From Promethearchaeota archaeon (GTDB lineage Archaea; Asgardarchaeota; Lokiarchaeia; Sigyniarchaeales; SOKP01), in assembly GCA_016839705.1 (NCBI GenBank), contig JAEOTR010000066.1, forward strand, positions 1-62,373: 62,373 nucleotides of DNA, given 5' to 3'. A model generated the notes under the pieces. It worked only from the letters and a program-made list of their open reading frames with translations. It was not told where the DNA came from and searched no databases. Both the position numbers and the translations under genes were made by a program. Shown in pieces: positions 34,893 through 60,708 of the stretch (the first letter of the stretch is position 1; every line of letters starts with the position of its first letter).

Positions 34893-35792
34893 TTACTTTA
34901 TCAAAACTCCTGAAAAATATCCAACGCAATATCCACCTATCCTTCCAGTTTTTTCAGAGCTAGTATAATACTTCAGTAATTCACCTTTAGTCGCATTCAA
35001 ATTTTCAGATATTAACATGAGAGTAGTAATGGTTTGTGGTCCGCATACAGTGGTTTTTAAAGCATTCTTAAGAGCATTACGGGCATTTAGGTTTTCAAAT
35101 TCTTCAATAACTGCCAAATCTATCTCTTTAAATTTATCTAATTGATTTGAACTATCCACTTGTTTATGTGACATATCTGAGGAGGCTACTATCACAACGT
35201 CTTTATCTATTAAGTTTACTGCTTTAGTTATATCCTTTGCTATTTCATTTAGTATTTTAAAATCTCTAGGACCTGCGATTTTAATAGGTAAAATTTTTAC
35301 ATCTTTATCGAATGAGCAGTATTTTATAAATGGTAGTTGGATTTCTATATTATGTTCTTGTTCAGCCTGAAATCCCAGAAATAGAGAATTGTCGGACTCA
35401 ATAATATTACTATTGTCTAAAATCTTCCCTGATAATTGATCATCTATTACTAAATTTCCTAATGGGGTCTCCCATTCTCCTGTTTCCATCAATGCAATTT
35501 TATTATACCCAATGTGATCTGTGCCTAGAATTATTACTGTATCCGGGATTTTTTCTTTAAATAAGTTTAAATAAGTAAACGCCGCACAAGGTCCGGAATA
35601 CTCCATTCCGGCATGTGGAGACACACCCCCTATAATAGTCCTTTCATTATTATTGGCAGTTACGAGCCTTTCATTAGGCCCAAATATATCATCGATGAAA
35701 TATCCATCTAATGCGTCCATTAAACCCTTCTTTGACCCAGGGTACCAACTTCCCGCATGAGATGCTCTTCTAACCATTTTTTCATACACCAA
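34893..35792 (-). CDS. MEMO1 family protein (AmmeMemoRadiSam system protein B)
   Basis: HAGSWYP, PHAG.YSG, WETPLG, EHNIEIQLPF, ASSDMSH, CG, VGY. Confidence 0.93.
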   Translation of the reverse strand: MVYEKMVRRASHAGSWYPGSKKGLMDALDGYFIDDIFGPNERLVTANNNERTIIGGVSPHAGMEYSGPCAAFTYLNLFKEKIPDTVIILGTDHIGYNKIALMETGEWETPLGNLVIDDQLSGKILDNSNIIESDNSLFLGFQAEQEHNIEIQLPFIKYCSFDKDVKILPIKIAGPRDFKILNEIAKDITKAVNLIDKDVVIVASSDMSHKQVDSSNQLDKFKEIDLAVIEEFENLNARNALKNALKTTVCGPQTITTLMLISENLNATKGELLKYYTSSEKTGRIGGYCVGYFSGVLIK

Positions 35793-35900: not shown

Positions 35901-36494
35901 ATGAATGAAGTAAAGGATAACAAAATCAATCTTGATGAAATTCAAGTACCAGAAAAGATTCCAACTAAGTTAATCAATTCAAGAGTTATTGTGTTCAATC
36001 CTTTATTCGCGTCTTATTTATATGTAAAAAAGGGTTTTTATGGAAGCCCCTTAGGGATTAATAAGCCCCGATTAGAATACTTTTCAAAACCTAGTGAATT
36101 ATCATTAATTGAAGCGTACTATTTATTAGAAAATAATGAGATCTCTATTTATGATGTGAAAGAGAAAAAAGATTTAAACTCTAAGGAGTTTTTCAAGCTT
36201 GCTAAAATAATTCATAACAAATTTGAAGAAAAGTATATAATTTATAAAGACTTAAGAGAAAAGAAGTATATTCCAAGACCTGGTCTCAAATTTGGAGCTG
36301 ATTTTGTTGTGTATCGTGTTGGACCGGGTCTTGAGCATTCCCTTTTCATGGTACACGTCTTACCACATGATTCTGAGATCACAGCGATAGATATGGTCCG
36401 TGCGGGGAGATTAGCTACATCTGTAAGAAAAAAATATGTCATTGCAAATCCTTTAACCAAATCGTACTATTTTTTTGAGTGGTTTAAACCTTAA
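35901..36494 (+). CDS. endA: tRNA-splicing endonuclease, catalytic subunit
   Basis: LSLIEAYYL, IYKDLR, RPGLKFGADFVVY, PG..HS, R.ATSVRK (Tyr/His/Lys triad region intact). Confidence 0.93.
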   Translation: MNEVKDNKINLDEIQVPEKIPTKLINSRVIVFNPLFASYLYVKKGFYGSPLGINKPRLEYFSKPSELSLIEAYYLLENNEISIYDVKEKKDLNSKEFFKLAKIIHNKFEEKYIIYKDLREKKYIPRPGLKFGADFVVYRVGPGLEHSLFMVHVLPHDSEITAIDMVRAGRLATSVRKKYVIANPLTKSYYFFEWFKP

Positions 36495-52487: not shown

Positions 52488-53273
52488 ATGGAATATAAGC
52501 ATCTTTTGATTGAAAAGCGTGATGATCATATAGCTATAGTTACACTTAACCGTCCAGATCAGTTAAATACATTAAATTCAACTCTAATGCGTGAAATTGA
52601 ACATTTAACAGAAGAGTTTCAAGAAGACACAGAAACACGTGTAGTGATTTTTACTGGTGCGGGTAAACATTTCTGTGGAGGAGCAGATTTGAAGGAATCA
52701 GGAAAACCAGCTACGTTACTTGAACAAACTAGAGCAAAGCAAATTGGTCCGAGAATGATACGGAAAATCTTTATGATGGACCAAATTACCATAGCAGCAA
52801 TAAATGGTGGGGCTTTTGGAGGAGGATGTTGTATTGTTACCGCTTGTGATTTTCGAATTGGGGCTGAAGGCTGTTTGGCAGGTTTTCCAGAGTCTAGATT
52901 AGGTATGAACTTATCGTGGGGGGCGGTCCCCTTAACAGTCCATGTAATTGGTCCAACATATGCTAAAGAAATGATTATTTTAGGTAAGAATAATGATGCC
53001 CAAACACTTTTGAAGTGGGGTTTTCTAACTGAAGTAGTATCAAAAGAAAAATTATTAGATCGGGCAATTAAAATCGCTAAGGATTACACCGAAGTACCTC
53101 CAATTCCTGCCCAAATGATTAAAAAGAGTATAAATCACGTCATTGGTGCATTGGATCAAGCAATAATGCACATGGATGCGGATCAGCATACGTTAACGAT
53201 GAGAACAGAGGACTTAAAGGAAGGGATTGCCGCATTCTTCGGAAAGCGTGAAGGAAATTATAAAGGAAATTAA
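52488..53273 (+). CDS. Enoyl-CoA hydratase/isomerase family protein
   Basis: TLNRPDQLN, FCGGADL, IAAING.AFGGG, CDFRI, FPE. Confidence 0.92.
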   Translation: MEYKHLLIEKRDDHIAIVTLNRPDQLNTLNSTLMREIEHLTEEFQEDTETRVVIFTGAGKHFCGGADLKESGKPATLLEQTRAKQIGPRMIRKIFMMDQITIAAINGGAFGGGCCIVTACDFRIGAEGCLAGFPESRLGMNLSWGAVPLTVHVIGPTYAKEMIILGKNNDAQTLLKWGFLTEVVSKEKLLDRAIKIAKDYTEVPPIPAQMIKKSINHVIGALDQAIMHMDADQHTLTMRTEDLKEGIAAFFGKREGNYKGN

Positions 53274-54266: not shown

Positions 54267-55013
54267 ATGATTAAAAAATTAAAAATTTACAACGAAATTA
54301 CTCATTTTAGCTTAATTGCACGGAGATATTTCGTGAATAATTTTTATGACGGTATGCTGACAATTCTAGGGATTTTACTTGGATTTTTTATGTTTATTGT
54401 ATATAACCCAGAGATAACCTCTATCGAATCTATTCTCGTTATATTTCCTAGCTTAGGAACCTCAATTTCTATGTTCATATCAGGTGTTTCAGGTTCTTAT
54501 CTTTCTGAAAGAGCAGAACATAAAAAAGAAAAAAGAGAATTAGATAAAGCCATGGTAATACTAGAGGATGATCAGATCGAAGAGATAAATAGACTACCTG
54601 AATTCAAAGTAAATGAAGAAATTCAAAAGGCAATGGTAACTCCAATTAATATCAGCAATTCATTTAAAAAGAAAAATCCGGTTAAAATCAGAAAGAAAAG
54701 TCAGAAAAAGAAGAAGTCAAAGACAAAAACTATTCATGAGAAAGCGGAAAGATTTGCTAATGTATTAGTTTCTTTTACAAATGGTACAGCTCCTCTATTA
54801 GGAGGGATAGTCCCCTCAATACCTTTCTTTTTCATCCAAAATGCAGGAATGTGGACTTTTATTATATCTTTTCTAACAATATTTATTTGTATAGTGTTTC
54901 TAGGGATTTTGTTGGGAGTAATCTCAAAAGAATCTATAATTAAAAATATTTTAGAAATGACAGCAGCATTCATAGTTACTCTTTTAATATCATTTCTGAT
55001 CTTGAGAGTCTGA
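54267..55013 (+). CDS. VIT1/CCC1 family transporter (tandem paralog)
   Basis: ARRYFVNNFYDG, SG.SGSYLSERAE, P.IPF. Confidence 0.85.
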   Translation: MIKKLKIYNEITHFSLIARRYFVNNFYDGMLTILGILLGFFMFIVYNPEITSIESILVIFPSLGTSISMFISGVSGSYLSERAEHKKEKRELDKAMVILEDDQIEEINRLPEFKVNEEIQKAMVTPINISNSFKKKNPVKIRKKSQKKKKSKTKTIHEKAERFANVLVSFTNGTAPLLGGIVPSIPFFFIQNAGMWTFIISFLTIFICIVFLGILLGVISKESIIKNILEMTAAFIVTLLISFLILRV

Positions 55014-55095
55014 TTAAATTGTCGTTTTAATATAATAAATTTTATCTTTTGGCTTTCATTTTTCTTTCTATAAACATATAACGTCGAGATTAATT

Positions 55096-55907
55096 TTGAA
55101 AGCATTCGTAGGAATAGATATTGGTTCTTTAGCAACAAAAATTGCCCTTCTGGAAAACAATAATTTAATAGATTTTCGAACAGAAAGATCCACCTTCGAT
55201 TTTAAAAGAATTGGACAGACAATGTTCAATGACATATTAGTAAAAAATAATTTGAATAGAGAAGATGTATTTGCAATGAGCACCGGCTACGGTAGAAATA
55301 CTGTGCAGTTCGCTGATGATCGAATTACAGAAATTACTGCTCACGCTCGGGGAGTTCAGTTTTTTTTCCAAGACGCTCATTCAGTTATCGATATAGGGGG
55401 GCAAGATAGTAAAGCTATATTGATATCACAAAAAACGGGGAATGTAATTGACTTTCAAATGAATGATAAATTTCAATTAGATAAACCTAATTGAAGTCAA
55501 AATGTGCTGCCGGTACAGGCAGATTTTTGGAAGTCATGGCAAATGCACTTGAGGTCCCGATTGAGGAGATTGGAGGATTAGCTCTAAAATCAAATGATCC
55601 TGCGTCAATAAGTTCCACATGTACGGTTTTTGCAGAATCTGAAGTCATATCACTGTTTGCCAAGGGAACAAAGAAAGAAAATATTGCTGCCGGAATTCAT
55701 AAATCAATTGCTAGGAGAGTTGCAGGAATGGCAAAACGTATAGGTGTAACTCCTTTACTGGTTTTTTGTGGTGGTGTAGCTAAAAATGTAGCAGTTAAAA
55801 AGTTCTTAGAAGTAGAGCTTGGATATGAAATCGTAATTCCTAATCAACCGCAACTAACTGGAGCCATTGGAGCCGCCTTAATTGCTCAAGAACATAATGG
55901 TGACTAA
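55096..55907 (+). CDS. 2-hydroxyacyl-CoA dehydratase activase (HgdC/BadFG-type ATPase), interrupted by a 32-nt insertion
   Basis: GIDIGS, TGYGR, EITAHARG, IDIGGQDSK, MNDK|CAAGTGRFLE, STCTVFAESE; removing 32 nt gives a contiguous 259-aa ORF. Confidence 0.9.
55470..55501 (+). other. Candidate BHB-type mRNA intron (32 nt)
   Basis: Central helix UGAU/GUCA, AAA bulges, inner stem ttcaattag/ctaattgaa; excision restores GAT AAA TGT (D-K-C). Confidence 0.7.
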
Positions 55908-55997
55908 TACATTTAGTAGTTAATTTTTATACTAAAAAATTTTATGAGCAATTAACTCTTTTTTGATTAATAATTCACAATTATTTTATTTAAGAAA

Positions 55998-57128
55998 ATG
56001 GATGACATTGAACTTCTATCGGAATATTATGCATTCCTTCAAGAAAAGAAGGGGGAAGGGAAAAAAGTTGTGGCTTTTATGTCACATGATAATATTCCTG
56101 AAGAATTAATAGACGCAGCGGGATTTGTTCCCCTAAGAATGATCTTTGCGGGAAATGATGAGTTAATGGATGCTAGTCATGATTTTCTTTCTCCCTCAAC
56201 TTGTGCCTTTGCTCAATCCTGTATAGGTGTATTTTCCGTTAAACCGAATATGTATAAGTTTTTAGATTTGATAGATTATTTTATTCTCTCAAATCATTGT
56301 GTATCAGATATATGTGCTTCTGAAGTTATAACTAAATATTTTAATATCAAACGTTTGAATTTTTATGTATCCTATACGAAGACTGAGAATAGTTTAAAAT
56401 ATTTCAAAATTGAAGTATTAGATTTAAAAAAACAACTTGAAGAGATTAAAGGGACTGAAATAGGTGTTCAAGAGTTAAAGAATAGCATTAGAAAATACAA
56501 TGAGTTTAAAAAAAAGTTAATGGAAATCAGCAATACAATTAAAAGCGGCTCTCAAAAATTAAAAATTATTCAAAAAGCAATGTTATTTGGTCCTGATATT
56601 CTCCCTGAATTAGATAGTACAATCTTAAAGCAATCAGAAATCCAAGTATCAGATAAAATCAAAGATATTCTATTAACGGGATGCTCTATTTTCATTAATG
56701 ACTATTTACTTGATTTAATTGAAGAAGGTGGTGGTAACGTTGTTTTTTTTGATACATGGGTTGGATTTAATTATTATTACCAAATAATAGATGAAAATGT
56801 CTTAAATTCTACAAAAGATCCAATTGATATACTTACCCATCGATTTGAGAAAAATTTCTACGGAGATCATTCCGTTCCAAATTTTCTTCAACGAAAAGTA
56901 TCACACATAGACACGTTTTCTAAAGACTATGAAAAGAAAACGGGAAAAAAAATAGGGGTTATAAACCATATCATAAAGTTTTGTGATCATATGTCAATTA
57001 TGTCTTCCCATTTGAAAAATAAGTTAAAAGTAAAAGGTATTTATGTATTAAATTTAGAGCGAGATTATTCTAGAGCAAATAGAGGTCAATTATCAACAAG
57101 AATAGAGGCATTTTTGGAGATGATGTAA
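55998..57128 (+). CDS. 2-hydroxyacyl-CoA dehydratase subunit (BcrC/BadD/HgdB family)
   Basis: PEELIDAAGF.P, C.F, KFCD, GQLSTRIEAFLEM. Confidence 0.88.
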   Translation: MDDIELLSEYYAFLQEKKGEGKKVVAFMSHDNIPEELIDAAGFVPLRMIFAGNDELMDASHDFLSPSTCAFAQSCIGVFSVKPNMYKFLDLIDYFILSNHCVSDICASEVITKYFNIKRLNFYVSYTKTENSLKYFKIEVLDLKKQLEEIKGTEIGVQELKNSIRKYNEFKKKLMEISNTIKSGSQKLKIIQKAMLFGPDILPELDSTILKQSEIQVSDKIKDILLTGCSIFINDYLLDLIEEGGGNVVFFDTWVGFNYYYQIIDENVLNSTKDPIDILTHRFEKNFYGDHSVPNFLQRKVSHIDTFSKDYEKKTGKKIGVINHIIKFCDHMSIMSSHLKNKLKVKGIYVLNLERDYSRANRGQLSTRIEAFLEMM

Positions 57129-57131
57129 TAG

Positions 57132-58490
57132 ATGAGTTTAGTTGCAGATGAATTAATACGATTTTCTTCAGTGTTGAGAATTGCCTACAATTTTTTAAAT
57201 GGAAGGGACTTTTTAAAGCGAAAAAAATTTCGAGAAAAAAAGAAGTTAATTTCTGTAGGTTTACCTTTTTCTGATTTAGTTTATGGATTTCCTGATTTAA
57301 TTCCCGTTTTTCCCATAAGAATGCATGAATTTGAAATTCATAAATATCTCACTTATTTAGGTTCTTCTTCCAAAATATTTGGTTGGGACCGTGTTACCAA
57401 TTTTTTAGGTTGGGTAAAAGATTTAGGTATTAAAGATATAAGTCAGACCGTTGATGATATAATTGAAAACGTAATAGATACAATAAACAGCAAATACAAT
57501 GAGATGTATGATATTGGAGTAGAAAACGGGATATCTACTGACTTTTGTTATGGTGTTAAATCACTTTATGGAATGAACGTATCAAAAGGGAAGAATTGTG
57601 ATGCAAATTTAAATTATACTATTCGTTGTAGCACCTGGAATAAATATCTAGAATCGATAGAAGCAATAGGAAACCCTTCTAAACAAATTTGGGTTGAAAT
57701 TCCCCCAAGAAATATTGGGAATTCCTTAGAACTTTTTATCGATAATATCACTCAGGGAATAAATGAATTAGAAAAACTAAGTAATTTTAGTTATAGTGAA
57801 AATGCATTAAGAAATCATTTTCAGACCGCTAATCAAATTCGTCAATCCTACAAAAAAATAATTTATGATATAAGTACCGCTGACTTCTATCCCTGTAATC
57901 CCGCAACATTTTGCGAAATTCTTTCGTTATTAAATATTAGTTTTCATGATTATAATTCCAATGCTACTCGTTATAAAGATAATACTACTCTTTTGTTAAA
58001 TGAAATGAGAGGGAGAATTAATAAGGGTATTGGTATGGATGTTTCAAAAATGCCCAAAATTTTAATTACACCCATGTTTGGTGGTTGGGAACCAAAAATG
58101 CATGATATAATCTACGAATTGGGAGGAAGAGTCTTGTATGGAGATTGGGATTTATTACGCTTTTTAGATGATATTCCGATTTCAAACAGAGCTGATCCTG
58201 TTGAAGCATATGCTGAATTTTTAATGAATGCAACCGAAAATGGCATTGGGTGTGATAACGATATTCTCACAGATTCCTATGTAAGATTAGCTAAGAATTT
58301 AAAAGCTGATGGACTTGTATTTGTCCAAGTGTTTGGTTGTCATTCGGTATCAAATTGCTATACTATGTTAAGAGAAAAAATACGGCGAGAATTAGAAATA
58401 CCAAGTATAGCGCTTAATTTTAATAAAATGGGGGAAAATGTAGAGCAAGTTCGTACCAGACTCGGTGCATTTATGGAAATGTACAAATGA
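57132..58490 (+). CDS. 2-hydroxyacyl-CoA dehydratase subunit (HgdA/B family)
   Basis: DFCY, DGLV...FGCHS, EQVRTRLGAFMEM. Confidence 0.8.
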   Translation: MSLVADELIRFSSVLRIAYNFLNGRDFLKRKKFREKKKLISVGLPFSDLVYGFPDLIPVFPIRMHEFEIHKYLTYLGSSSKIFGWDRVTNFLGWVKDLGIKDISQTVDDIIENVIDTINSKYNEMYDIGVENGISTDFCYGVKSLYGMNVSKGKNCDANLNYTIRCSTWNKYLESIEAIGNPSKQIWVEIPPRNIGNSLELFIDNITQGINELEKLSNFSYSENALRNHFQTANQIRQSYKKIIYDISTADFYPCNPATFCEILSLLNISFHDYNSNATRYKDNTTLLLNEMRGRINKGIGMDVSKMPKILITPMFGGWEPKMHDIIYELGGRVLYGDWDLLRFLDDIPISNRADPVEAYAEFLMNATENGIGCDNDILTDSYVRLAKNLKADGLVFVQVFGCHSVSNCYTMLREKIRRELEIPSIALNFNKMGENVEQVRTRLGAFMEMYK

Positions 58491-58515
58491 ATTATTAGGT
58501 GTACAATGGAGAAAT

Positions 58516-59235
58516 ATGACAAAAGAAATTAATAAAAGCAACAGTAATAATCTAATCTATATAATTGATAACTATTCAGCTAACTTTCAGACCGACCGAA
58601 TAAAAAACTTGCTGGATATTTTTAGTGAAAAAATCCCTAAGACTAGTGTTAAGGTTATTCATTACTCTCAAGCAGACTTGGAGATCCTAAAATATAGCAG
58701 TGGGATAATTCTTACAGGATCTGAAATCAATGTGTCTGAGTTTTATGCAAATAGGGTCTTACGTAAGAAATTCAAATTAGTACTTAAACTAATTAAAAAA
58801 GCTAAAAACATTCCTATATTAGCAATTTGTTATGGTCACCATTTAACGGGCTTTATATTTCATGGAAAAGTATATCGAATGAATATACCACACGATGGTG
58901 GAAGAATTATTCCACTATTGTTAAACAAAACAGATAGGTTAATTCCATACAAAAAAATAATTGTAGATATTCAACATCGAGACTACATACTCCCAGATGA
59001 CCTTAAATTAAATAAGAAATTTGAAATAATAGCAACTAAAGATCTATATGGTTACAGTACAATCCAATATATGCGTCATATAAATAGACCTATTTACTCA
59101 GTTCAATTTCATCCCGAAACTCATCTTGCAAGTTATATCTATAGAAATGAGGATGATGAAGAAAGGATTAAAGAAGCAAAACAATATGGAGAAGAAATTA
59201 TAATAAATTTTGCGAATATCTGTAAACTAAAATAG
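58516..59235 (+). CDS. Class I glutamine amidotransferase domain protein
   Basis: IIDNY, GIILTGS, PILAICYGH, VQFHPE; ATG at 58516 after GGAGA. Confidence 0.88.
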   Translation: MTKEINKSNSNNLIYIIDNYSANFQTDRIKNLLDIFSEKIPKTSVKVIHYSQADLEILKYSSGIILTGSEINVSEFYANRVLRKKFKLVLKLIKKAKNIPILAICYGHHLTGFIFHGKVYRMNIPHDGGRIIPLLLNKTDRLIPYKKIIVDIQHRDYILPDDLKLNKKFEIIATKDLYGYSTIQYMRHINRPIYSVQFHPETHLASYIYRNEDDEERIKEAKQYGEEIIINFANICKLK

Positions 59236-59358
59236 ATATCAAAAACCAATATTTTATCAAACCGATTCTTAAAAACTTTAATACAAACAAGATTTATAAC
59301 ACAATGTAGAATTTTAAAAAAAACCGCATGATCTGAACCTCTTGGAGACTTCTATAGA

Positions 59359-60708
59359 ATGAGCATATATGCCGATGATGTTGTAGGTTTTACTTCAGTA
59401 TTGAAAATTGCTTATAACTTCTTAACTGGTAGAGATTATTTACTAAAGAAAAAATCCAAGGAAAAAAAGAAATTAATTTCAGTCGCTTTAGGATTACCCG
59501 ACTTAGTTTTTGCAGCGGATTCAATCCCAGTTTTCCCGATTCGAATGGAAAGATTTAAACTTAACTTATATCTGATAGCTCTTAATACGGCGAAAAGTTT
59601 ATTTGGATGGAATATTACAACTGATCTACTCGGGATTGCGCATCAACTTGATTTCTTAAAAATAGTCGATTCAATTATCAATGACGTAATAAACACTATT
59701 AACATAAAATACAATACAATGTTTGAGTTGGGAATAAAAACTAGTAAATCCCCTGAATTATGCTATGGAGTACACTCAATTTATGGCATGCACAAATCTC
59801 AACATGAAAATTTAGATGCGAATTTAAATTTTACAATAAGGTGTGATGAGTGTAATAATTATTCTAGTATGTTGAAATCGATGATCCCTAATCAGATCTG
59901 GGTTGGGATCCCTTCAGAAAGTGAGGAAAATGTTTTAGATCGCATGAAGCATAATCTCGAGAAGGCAATTACTGAATTAGAGCATATTACTGGCAATGTA
60001 GTTACTGATAATAGTTTAAAAAAACAATTTCGTATTGGTAACCAAGTTAAGAGATATTATAAAACGATTTTACATGAAATAGGTTCTTCAGAGTTTTACC
60101 CATGTAATCCTGCGACATTCGCTGAAATTTTAGGTCTCCTCACAATATCTTTTCAAGACTATAATTCTAATGCTCAAAGATACTTAGAAAATATGAGTCA
60201 ATTAGTCAAGGAGATGAGAGAACGAATTAAGAAAGGTATAGGTATGGATGTTTCAAACACGCCTCGATTGCTCATCTCCCCAATATTTAATGGATGGGAT
60301 CCCGAAATTCATGAAATTATCTATAAATTTGGTGGTCGAGCTATTTATGCTGATTGGGATATTTTAGGATTACTGGATGAGATACCAGTATCAAAAGATT
60401 CAGATCCAATTGAAGATTATGCTCGATTTCTTTTGAATGCTTCAAATAAGGGAAACCAATGTCTAAAGAATTGTGATACATTAGCGAATTCATATTCAAG
60501 ATATACTAAAAAATGGGCTTTTGATGGTATTATTTTCAATCAAGTGCTGGACTGTCATCCAAATTACTCAAACTGTTATGAATTATTAAAAAATAAAATA
60601 AGAAATGAACTGAGAAAACCAACTGTTGTAGTAAGATTTAAGAAAATAGGGGAAAATGTAGAAGAAGTAAAAACTAAATTGACTCCTTTTATGAATTTGT
60701 TTGCGTAA
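59359..60708 (+). CDS. 2-hydroxyacyl-CoA dehydratase subunit, paralog of 57132-58490
   Basis: Shared blocks IAYNFL.GRD, PVFPIRM, FYPCNPATF.EIL, GIGMDVS, GENVE. Confidence 0.8.
   Translation: MSIYADDVVGFTSVLKIAYNFLTGRDYLLKKKSKEKKKLISVALGLPDLVFAADSIPVFPIRMERFKLNLYLIALNTAKSLFGWNITTDLLGIAHQLDFLKIVDSIINDVINTINIKYNTMFELGIKTSKSPELCYGVHSIYGMHKSQHENLDANLNFTIRCDECNNYSSMLKSMIPNQIWVGIPSESEENVLDRMKHNLEKAITELEHITGNVVTDNSLKKQFRIGNQVKRYYKTILHEIGSSEFYPCNPATFAEILGLLTISFQDYNSNAQRYLENMSQLVKEMRERIKKGIGMDVSNTPRLLISPIFNGWDPEIHEIIYKFGGRAIYADWDILGLLDEIPVSKDSDPIEDYARFLLNASNKGNQCLKNCDTLANSYSRYTKKWAFDGIIFNQVLDCHPNYSNCYELLKNKIRNELRKPTVVVRFKKIGENVEEVKTKLTPFMNLFA

What the first reader, a model, noticed from the sequence alone, without database searches (positions are those of the whole stretch)
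55460..55510. Candidate bulge-helix-bulge mRNA intron splitting the MNDK-CAAG motif of a dehydratase activase
Seen: the activase gene is broken exactly between NDK and the Fe-S-ligand Cys by 32 extra nt that contain a perfect 9-bp hairpin (ttcaattag-ataaac-ctaattgaa). Hand folding pairs UGAU (55464-67) with GUCA (55496-99, one G-U), each followed by AAA; the inner stem then has one bulged U. Established: archaeal EndA cuts after the second nucleotide of each 3-nt bulge. That would remove 55470-55501, exactly 32 nt, giving GAT AAA TGT and an intact 259-aa HgdC-sized protein. Both halves look undecayed. Inference: this is an EndA/RtcB-spliced intron in a metabolic mRNA. Such introns are known from crenarchaeal cbf5 and some DPANN; I am not aware of a description in Asgard archaea. 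Weak point: the outer exon-exon helix is only about 1 bp.
Basis: partly seen in the sequence, partly recalled or inferred. Interest (0 to 1): 0.9.

Follow-up and report, generated by a model that had tools for sequence, protein, structure and literature searches.

The report
Spliced tRNA-type intron in Asgard enzyme
A 32-base insert that breaks an iron-sulfur enzyme gene of a Loki-type Asgard archaeon has the shape that the tRNA-splicing enzyme cuts; it is present in DNA but exactly missing from a matching RNA contig, so the messenger RNA is very probably spliced, which the papers I could search report inside a coding sequence for only one archaeal gene (cbf5).

Summary
Confirmed. A 32-nt insert (55470-55501) splits a dehydratase activase gene inside the Lys codon before the first Fe-S cysteine; removal restores 259 aa. 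DNA contigs of two samples carry it. One 257-nt metatranscriptome contig from another study matches without mismatch and skips exactly 32 nt there. Twenty distinct inserts (27-38 nt, all frames, all with early stops) sit at this site in related Promethearchaeota genes. Hairpin sequences differ, but 19/20 keep GUCA to pair with exon UGAY, and the bulge-helix-bulge cut is the only register restoring Lys in all 20. The motif is relaxed (outer helix about 1 bp); the contig's EndA alpha keeps the catalytic triad and broad-specificity loop lysine, and RtcB is present. Both exons are under purifying selection. The intron is scattered: 11 of 161 class genomes, at least 8 gains or losses. Five more genes in this genome carry similar inserts. 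No Asgard mRNA intron turned up in the papers searched. This scan has reported the same phenomenon on other DNA, including this site. Caveats: one low-depth RNA contig, no DNA from that sample, EndA cleavage untested.

The parts
55096..55469 (+). Exon 1 of the acyl-CoA dehydratase activase (HgdC/HadI type); ends with the first two bases of the Lys codon of the MNDK motif
   Evidence: TIGR00241 positions 3-121, E 3e-31; covered from 55399 by the RNA contig
55470..55501 (+). 32-nt intron (shifts the frame; unspliced frame stops at TGA 55492-94)
   Evidence: RNA contig skips 32 nt, 4-nt placement ambiguity; motif-free paralog alignment picks length 32; this register is the only one valid in 20/20 orthologs
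55464..55467 (+). Exon strand (UGAU) of the 4-bp central helix
   Evidence: Asn codon is AAT in 20/20 intron genes versus 70/101 intron-less genes (kin not independent)
55468..55470 (+). 5' bulge AAA; predicted cut after 55469
   Evidence: cut rule from PMC2738675
55472..55495 (+). Intron hairpin (9 bp, 6-nt loop) = intron-side helix h'
   Evidence: 0/200 shuffles; a hairpin of different sequence in orthologs (median z -3.4; median pairwise identity 56%)
55496..55499 (+). Intron strand (GUCA) of the central helix
   Evidence: GTCA at this position in 19/20 distinct inserts, GTCT in one; GTCA is 0.2% of window 4-mers
55500..55502 (+). 3' bulge/loop AAA; predicted cut after 55501
55502..55907 (+). 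Exon 2 of the activase, with both [4Fe-4S] cysteines (first at 55503-05)
   Evidence: 1HUX residues 127-255, E 2.6e-36; dN/dS about 0.02-0.07 against the nearest intron-bearing orthologs
55449..55536 (+). Possible distal exon-exon helix (55449-58 with 55527-36) enclosing the splice motif; suggestive only
   Evidence: duplex <= -7 kcal in 10/20 intron genes versus 9/101 intron-less; not significant on independent pairs
35901..36494 (+). EndA catalytic (alpha) subunit with triad Y138/H146/K177 and loop lysine K55; candidate cutting enzyme
   Evidence: A. pernix alpha subunit 3p1z_B, E 1e-34; K44, Y125, H133, K164
55998..60708 (+). Downstream co-oriented genes: three 2-hydroxyacyl-CoA dehydratase/reductase-type subunits and one gene between them (58465-59235, GATase-like by eye, not scanned); likely partners of the activase
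   Evidence: NF040772, HadB/HadC matches below cut-off

Best explanation
The insert is a tRNA-type intron in a messenger RNA. The pre-mRNA folds so that exon UGAU pairs with intron GUCA, next to a 3-nt bulge and the intron hairpin (relaxed HBh' / bulge-helix-loop form). The broad-specificity (alpha-beta)2 splicing endonuclease cuts after the second base of each bulge, and RtcB joins the exons, rebuilding the Lys codon and the frame so that a 259-aa activase with both Fe-S cysteines is made. Unspliced message gives a 132-aa fragment without the cluster ligands. Shown: insert in DNA, joined form in an RNA-library contig, conserved motif, unique register, selection on both exons, presence of endA-alpha and rtcB. 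Inferred: that EndA and RtcB act on it and that the protein is made. The intron is most likely a tolerated, near-neutral passenger kept only where it can be spliced; no regulatory role is shown.
For: RNA contig of run X6 (another study): 257 nt, no mismatches, 55399-55467 joined to 55500-55687; DNA runs X1 and X2 span the insert and show no 32-nt joint. 20 distinct inserts of 27-38 nt at the same site, in all three frames, every one with a stop within 12 codons, including all nine whose length is a multiple of 3. GUCA fixed 7-4 nt before the Cys codon in 19/20; hairpin better than shuffles (p <= 0.05) in 17/20. Only the BHB register restores MNDKC in 20/20; in L003 no other register works. Frames are open on both sides after removal in every copy; purifying selection. 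In the 10 other intron-bearing genomes no intron-less copy matched the ortholog pattern, while 101/135 family genomes have one. EndA alpha with triad and CSL lysine; a second EndA paralog in most relatives, including intron carriers G004 and G005; RtcB. Five more genes in this genome have BHB inserts whose removal restores recognisable motifs.
Against: RNA evidence is one contig of depth 2.8, from a sample with no paired DNA run, with a 4-nt direct repeat at the joint. The exon-exon helix next to the 3' bulge is about 1 bp, and the BHB fold is not the minimum-energy fold in this copy. The EndA beta subunit is not in this 93%-complete assembly. Precise intron-less alleles are common among close relatives, so an intron-less strain is possible.
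Confidence: 0.92

Rival explanations
1. The insert is an intron, but the RNA contig does not show splicing: it comes from an intron-less strain of the same species, or from reverse-transcriptase template switching across the hairpin between the 4-nt direct repeats.
For: No DNA run of sample S6 was laid; the joint has 4 nt of ambiguity and flanks a stable hairpin; intron presence changes often on the tree.
Against: No unspliced contig was reported at this site in X6; the joined form was not seen in X1 or X2 (67-75% of each run read); 257 nt are identical to the intron-bearing genome, whereas the nearest intron-less orthologs differ by about 12% or more in exon-2 protein. The comparative case does not depend on this contig. 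This rival lowers the RNA evidence, not the intron call.
Confidence: 0.12
2. Ribosomal bypassing or frameshifting: the ribosome hops from the AAA take-off codon over the hairpin to the AAA before the cysteine, as in T4 gene 60, with no RNA cutting.
For: Take-off and landing codons are identical in this copy and in 12 of 20 orthologs; there is a hairpin and a stop in the gap.
Against: In 4 of 20 orthologs take-off and landing codons encode different residues (Asn versus Lys or Ile), yet the BHB cut still yields Lys. Bypassing does not explain the invariant GUCA or an RNA that lacks the insert.
Confidence: 0.02
3. Split gene: two polypeptides made from the TGA/TTG overlap at 55491-94 that assemble into one activase.
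For: An in-frame TTG four codons before the cysteine overlaps the stop of the first frame.
Against: 17 of 20 orthologs have no in-frame start before the cysteine; 11 have a stop two codons upstream of it. The overlap is an accident of this copy.
Confidence: 0.01
4. Pseudogene caused by a small hairpin insertion (MITE-like remnant or replication slip) with no removal.
For: G000 holds an intron-less paralog on a 2-kb contig; the insert is palindromic.
Against: No other stop or frameshift in any intron-bearing copy; dN/dS about 0.02-0.07 with dS up to saturation; sole matching copy in 10 genomes; the insert has no second copy in the genome.
Confidence: 0.02

Closest known systems
BHB intron of the cbf5 pre-mRNA in Crenarchaeota (Watanabe 2002; Yokobori 2009, PMC2738675)
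   Same: Short intron inside a codon at a catalytically critical motif; relaxed BHB at the boundaries; cuts between the second and third bulge bases; linked to the hetero-oligomeric EndA; patchy through gain and loss.
   Different: Asgard (Promethearchaeota) host; energy-metabolism Fe-S enzyme rather than an RNA-modifying enzyme; one of at least six such genes in the genome; presence scattered even within a genus; cbf5 splicing has cDNA and in vitro proof, this has one RNA contig.
Haloferax volcanii HVO_1309 5' UTR intron (Schwarz 2020, PMC7714728)
   Same: EndA-cleaved BHB intron in an mRNA (46 nt).
   Different: Lies in the untranslated leader and does not break a reading frame; that paper counts cbf5 as the only other case.
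Non-canonical tRNA introns of Asgard archaea (bioRxiv 10.64898/2026.10.13.758758; PMC11291895)
   Same: Short inserts at BHB motifs, gained many times, arrival route unknown, in genomes with two-subunit EndA.
   Different: Those are tRNA genes only; the preprint does not mention mRNA and reports no splicing shown in an Asgard cell.
IRE1/RtcB unconventional splicing of XBP1 and HAC1 mRNA in eukaryotes (from memory, not tested)
   Same: Protein-cut, spliceosome-free removal of a short frame-shifting intron from an mRNA; joined by RtcB in animals.
   Different: Different nuclease (IRE1) and recognition motif; stress-regulated; no evidence of regulation or homology here.

Membership tests
Archaeal BHB (EndA-type) intron | 4-bp central helix between exon and intron | tested here: met
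   UGAU/GUCA; 4/4 pairs in 19 of 20 distinct inserts, 3/4 in one
Archaeal BHB (EndA-type) intron | Exon-intron borders after the second base of each 3-nt bulge | tested here: met
   Only register valid in 20/20 orthologs; unique in L003; compatible with the RNA joint
Archaeal BHB (EndA-type) intron | Intron-side helix h' next to the 5' bulge | tested here: met
   Hairpin in all 20 with different sequences; often a mismatch or bulge near its base
Strict hBHBh' motif | Exon-side helix h closing the 3' bulge | tested here: not met
   About 1 bp; constrained folds leave it open. The motif is the relaxed HBh'/BHL form, a known substrate of (alpha-beta)2 EndA
Archaeal BHB (EndA-type) intron | Removed from the RNA in vivo | tested here: met
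   One RNA-library contig, identical, lacks the 32 nt while DNA contigs keep them; single low-depth contig from another sample, so support is moderate
Archaeal BHB (EndA-type) intron | Cut by EndA and ligated by RtcB; excised circle | not testable with these tools
   Genes present; no assay, and contigs cannot show a 32-nt circle
Broad-specificity (alpha-beta)2 EndA | Catalytic Tyr-His-Lys triad and CSL/L1 loop lysine in the alpha subunit | tested here: met
   Y138, H146, K177 and K55 align with A. pernix Y125, H133, K164 and K44
Broad-specificity (alpha-beta)2 EndA | Separate beta subunit gene | tested here: inconclusive
   Not in this 93%-complete assembly; a second paralog in 15 of 18 same-genus genomes
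Acyl-CoA dehydratase activase (TIGR00241; HgdC/HadI) | ASKHA ATPase with two cluster-ligating cysteines, next to dehydratase subunit genes | tested here: met
   Halves tile the model; exon 2 aligns to 1HUX 127-255 and 4EHT 125-253; subunit genes follow
Translational bypassing element (T4 gene 60 type) | Matched take-off and landing codons | tested here: not met
   Different residues in 4 of 20 orthologs, synonymous only in 4 more
Group I/II intron or other Rfam family | Ribozyme core, Rfam match | tested here: not met
   32 nt; no Rfam match near any gathering score

The most novel reading that the evidence does not exclude
In this family of Loki-type Asgard archaea, EndA/RtcB splicing of protein-coding mRNAs is routine: several conserved genes per genome need it, and the micro-introns are gained and precisely lost, or passed between alleles, on short evolutionary time scales, with exon codons adapting to keep them spliceable. 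That would be a spliceosome-free mRNA intron system in the archaeal relatives of eukaryotes.
Probability: 0.7. Interest if true: 0.9.

Novelty: new variant of a known kind. Interest (0 to 1): 0.8.

Why it matters
In the papers I could search, splicing inside an archaeal coding sequence is documented for cbf5 alone. A second lineage, the one closest to eukaryotes, with such introns in metabolic and housekeeping genes would make mRNA splicing a normal part of gene expression there. It would also mean that Asgard gene catalogues hold falsely split or truncated proteins, often at catalytic motifs, which affects metabolic and eukaryote-origin inferences. This locus is a good test case: 20 natural variants of one intron, one with an unambiguous junction (L003), intron-less sister alleles as controls, and the candidate nuclease on the same contig. 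It makes the substrate rules of Asgard EndA and the routes of intron gain and loss directly testable, and bears on whether protein-catalysed mRNA splicing (IRE1/RtcB type) has archaeal antecedents, which is not shown here.

Tried and rejected
1. Motif-only genome scan: first version timed out; the second gave 12,231 candidates, so the BHB shape plus frame-joining is useless without homology. 2. Motif-free census with paralogs in the same genome: recovered this intron (best length 32) but missed the single-copy and 5'-proximal cases, so it gives no genome total. 3. Vertical descent of the intron sequence: Mantel test of intron distance against exon distance gave rho -0.11, p 0.91. Gain once with many losses, repeated gain and horizontal spread cannot be told apart. 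4. Distal exon-exon helix and the AAT codon bias: strong raw association, but sign tests on 8 independent pairs were not significant (median p 0.5 and 0.25). 5. Reverse transcriptase as the route of precise loss: no PF00078 match in G000 (incomplete assembly). 6. Source of the insert: no second copy in the genome. 7. Five pattern hits (L033, L043, L050, L055, L056) lack the central helix and were excluded. 8. Run X5 does not cover the junction for this organism, so it says nothing. 9. DPANN mRNA introns: not found in PMC8784108 or in searches. 10. Exon-1 dN values come from ungapped alignment and may be inflated.

Full report
Observation. Two ORFs, 55096-55494 and 55491-55907, match the first and second halves of the acyl-CoA dehydratase activase model TIGR00241. 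Between the Asp codon of MNDK and the Cys codon of CAAG lie 35 bases where 3 are needed. Removing 55470-55501 gives a 259-aa frame. The first exon-2 codon is the equivalent of Cys127 of the solved activase 1HUX, a ligand of the bridging [4Fe-4S] cluster (ligand role from established knowledge). The insert holds a 9-bp hairpin far above shuffles. The fold alone proves little: a loose scan for such motifs that join two frames returns 12,231 candidates in this AT-rich genome.

DNA and RNA. Contigs from two DNA runs span the insert without gaps (X1 54384-56206, one difference; X2 55260-55721, none), so it is not an assembly error. A metatranscriptome from another study (X6) holds a 257-nt contig with no mismatch that joins 55467 to 55500, skipping 32 nt; the joint can slide by 4 nt and includes the predicted position. 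No DNA run showed this joint. The contig has depth 2.8 and there is no DNA run from its sample, so an intron-less strain or a reverse-transcriptase jump is not excluded.

Orthologs. Searches of relatives, all GTDB species and metagenomes gave 20 distinct inserts at this site, 27-38 nt long, in all three frames. Every one puts a stop within 12 codons, including the nine of length divisible by three. The hairpin region differs (median identity 56%) but folds better than shuffles in 17 of 20. GUCA stands 7-4 nt before the Cys codon in 19 of 20, where it pairs with exon UGAY; GTCA makes up 0.2% of 4-mers in the window. Of all ways to place the cut, only the one after the second base of each bulge restores MNDKC in all 20, and in L003 it is the only possible one. 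The Asn codon whose last base opens the helix is AAT in 20/20 intron genes against 70/101 intron-less genes, while the Asp codon, whose last base faces G and can be U or C, varies. Kin are not independent, and the paired test is not significant.

The gene is alive. After removal, frames are open on both sides in every copy. Exon 2 shows dN 0.013-0.078 against dS 0.56-1.37 to the nearest intron-bearing orthologs. The gene is near-universal in the family (101 of 135 genomes match the intron-less pattern), and none of the 10 other intron-bearing genomes has an intron-less match. G000 has an intron-less paralog on a 2-kb contig that groups with other genera.

Machinery. The contig encodes an EndA subunit closest to the A. 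pernix catalytic alpha subunit, with the Tyr-His-Lys triad and the loop lysine that allows relaxed motifs to be cut. Asgard enzymes are reported as (alpha-beta)2 with this loop (PMC5829648). The beta gene is missing from this 93%-complete assembly but present in most relatives, including intron carriers. RtcB is present. The motif here is the relaxed HBh' form: the exon-side helix is about 1 bp, and the BHB conformer is 0.6 kcal/mol above the minimum fold in G000 and within about 1.2 kcal/mol in 19 of 20 inserts. A 10-bp exon-exon helix (55449-58 with 55527-36) could clamp the region; it is strong in 10 of 20 intron genes against 9 of 101 intron-less ones, with CAA/TTG and CAG/CTG codon pairs, but it is absent from a whole intron-bearing clade and not significant on independent pairs.

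Rivals. Two polypeptides: 17 of 20 orthologs have no start before the cysteine. Ribosomal bypass: take-off and landing codons encode different residues in 4 of 20. Pseudogene: excluded by selection. Ribozyme or known RNA family: none.

Distribution and history. The intron occurs in 11 of 161 class genomes, all in one family and two genera; named records are Promethearchaeota. The record labelled Thorarchaeota has the same insert as G094, a same-genus genome. On a 119-protein tree, 19 intron-bearing rows need 17 changes, 8 of them forced by well-supported branches, and are no more clustered than shuffled labels. My sample is enriched for intron carriers by design. Intron distance does not track exon distance, although some are clearly related (L010, L035, L048). 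One gain with many precise losses is the simplest reading of a single shared position; repeated gain or allele exchange remain open.

Not alone. Following leads from earlier scan notes, my own scan finds BHB inserts of 27-31 nt in this genome whose removal restores motifs that I recognise from memory as RNase HII, IscU, an EF-2 paralog and a small GTPase, plus an aldehyde:ferredoxin oxidoreductase-like gene. These were not checked against orthologs or RNA.

Known and new. The mechanism is that of the crenarchaeal cbf5 intron (PMC2738675). A 2020 paper counts cbf5 as the only such mRNA besides a Haloferax 5' UTR (PMC7714728). Papers on Asgard introns treat tRNA only. Ten searches found no report of Asgard mRNA introns; the library lacks most subscription papers. 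This scan has already noted the phenomenon in at least 38 genomes, this same site in two other windows, and RNA junctions for other genes; those notes are leads, not support.

Verdict. A real, very probably spliced tRNA-type intron in a metabolic mRNA of a Loki-type Asgard archaeon (0.92). New variant of a known kind. Interest 0.8.

Noticed in passing
G000 C25:55280-55309 (+), C85:74326-74352 (+), C82:11187-11216 (+), C9:812-840 (+), C85 near 34893-34923 (-): Five more 27-31 nt BHB inserts whose removal restores conserved motifs (RNase HII, IscU, EF-2 paralog, small GTPase, aldehyde:ferredoxin oxidoreductase-like; names from motif memory). A sixth candidate at C71 near 17764 (-) is unidentified.
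   Followed up: partly
window 55449-55458 with 55527-55536: Distal exon-exon helix made of Asp-Phe-Gln and Leu-Glu-Val codons, enriched in intron-bearing genes. Four intron-less genes (L118, L124, L130, L132) in a clade with intron carriers have it at full strength, possibly relics of recent loss.
   Followed up: partly
G000 C40:1406-1816 (2032-bp contig): Intron-less activase paralog, 84% identical in exon 2, grouping with other genera; contamination (6.8%) or transfer.
   Followed up: partly
L037 (JBHLRJ010000019.1): Record titled Candidatus Thorarchaeota, but it has the same insert as G094, which GTDB places in the window's genus; the label is probably wrong.
   Followed up: partly
G000 whole assembly: No EndA beta subunit found, and the neighbouring genes of a relative's beta locus are also missing, which suggests an assembly gap. 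ARAGORN calls only 31 tRNA genes, many with odd introns, and a tRNA-Sec on C18.
   Followed up: partly
L050 639-700, L056 5937-5998, L043 229-287: Metagenomic matches with 30-33 extra in-frame bases and no central helix; L050 and L056 look like an MND repeat just upstream of the MNDK motif rather than an intron.
   Followed up: no
window 55096-60708: Operon-like run of activase, one smaller subunit, two paralogous larger subunits and a GATase-like gene between them, with a crotonase-like gene upstream (52488-53273); substrate unknown.
   Followed up: no
window 56021: All three DNA runs that cover it read A where the window has G; possible assembly error or strain variant.
   Followed up: no
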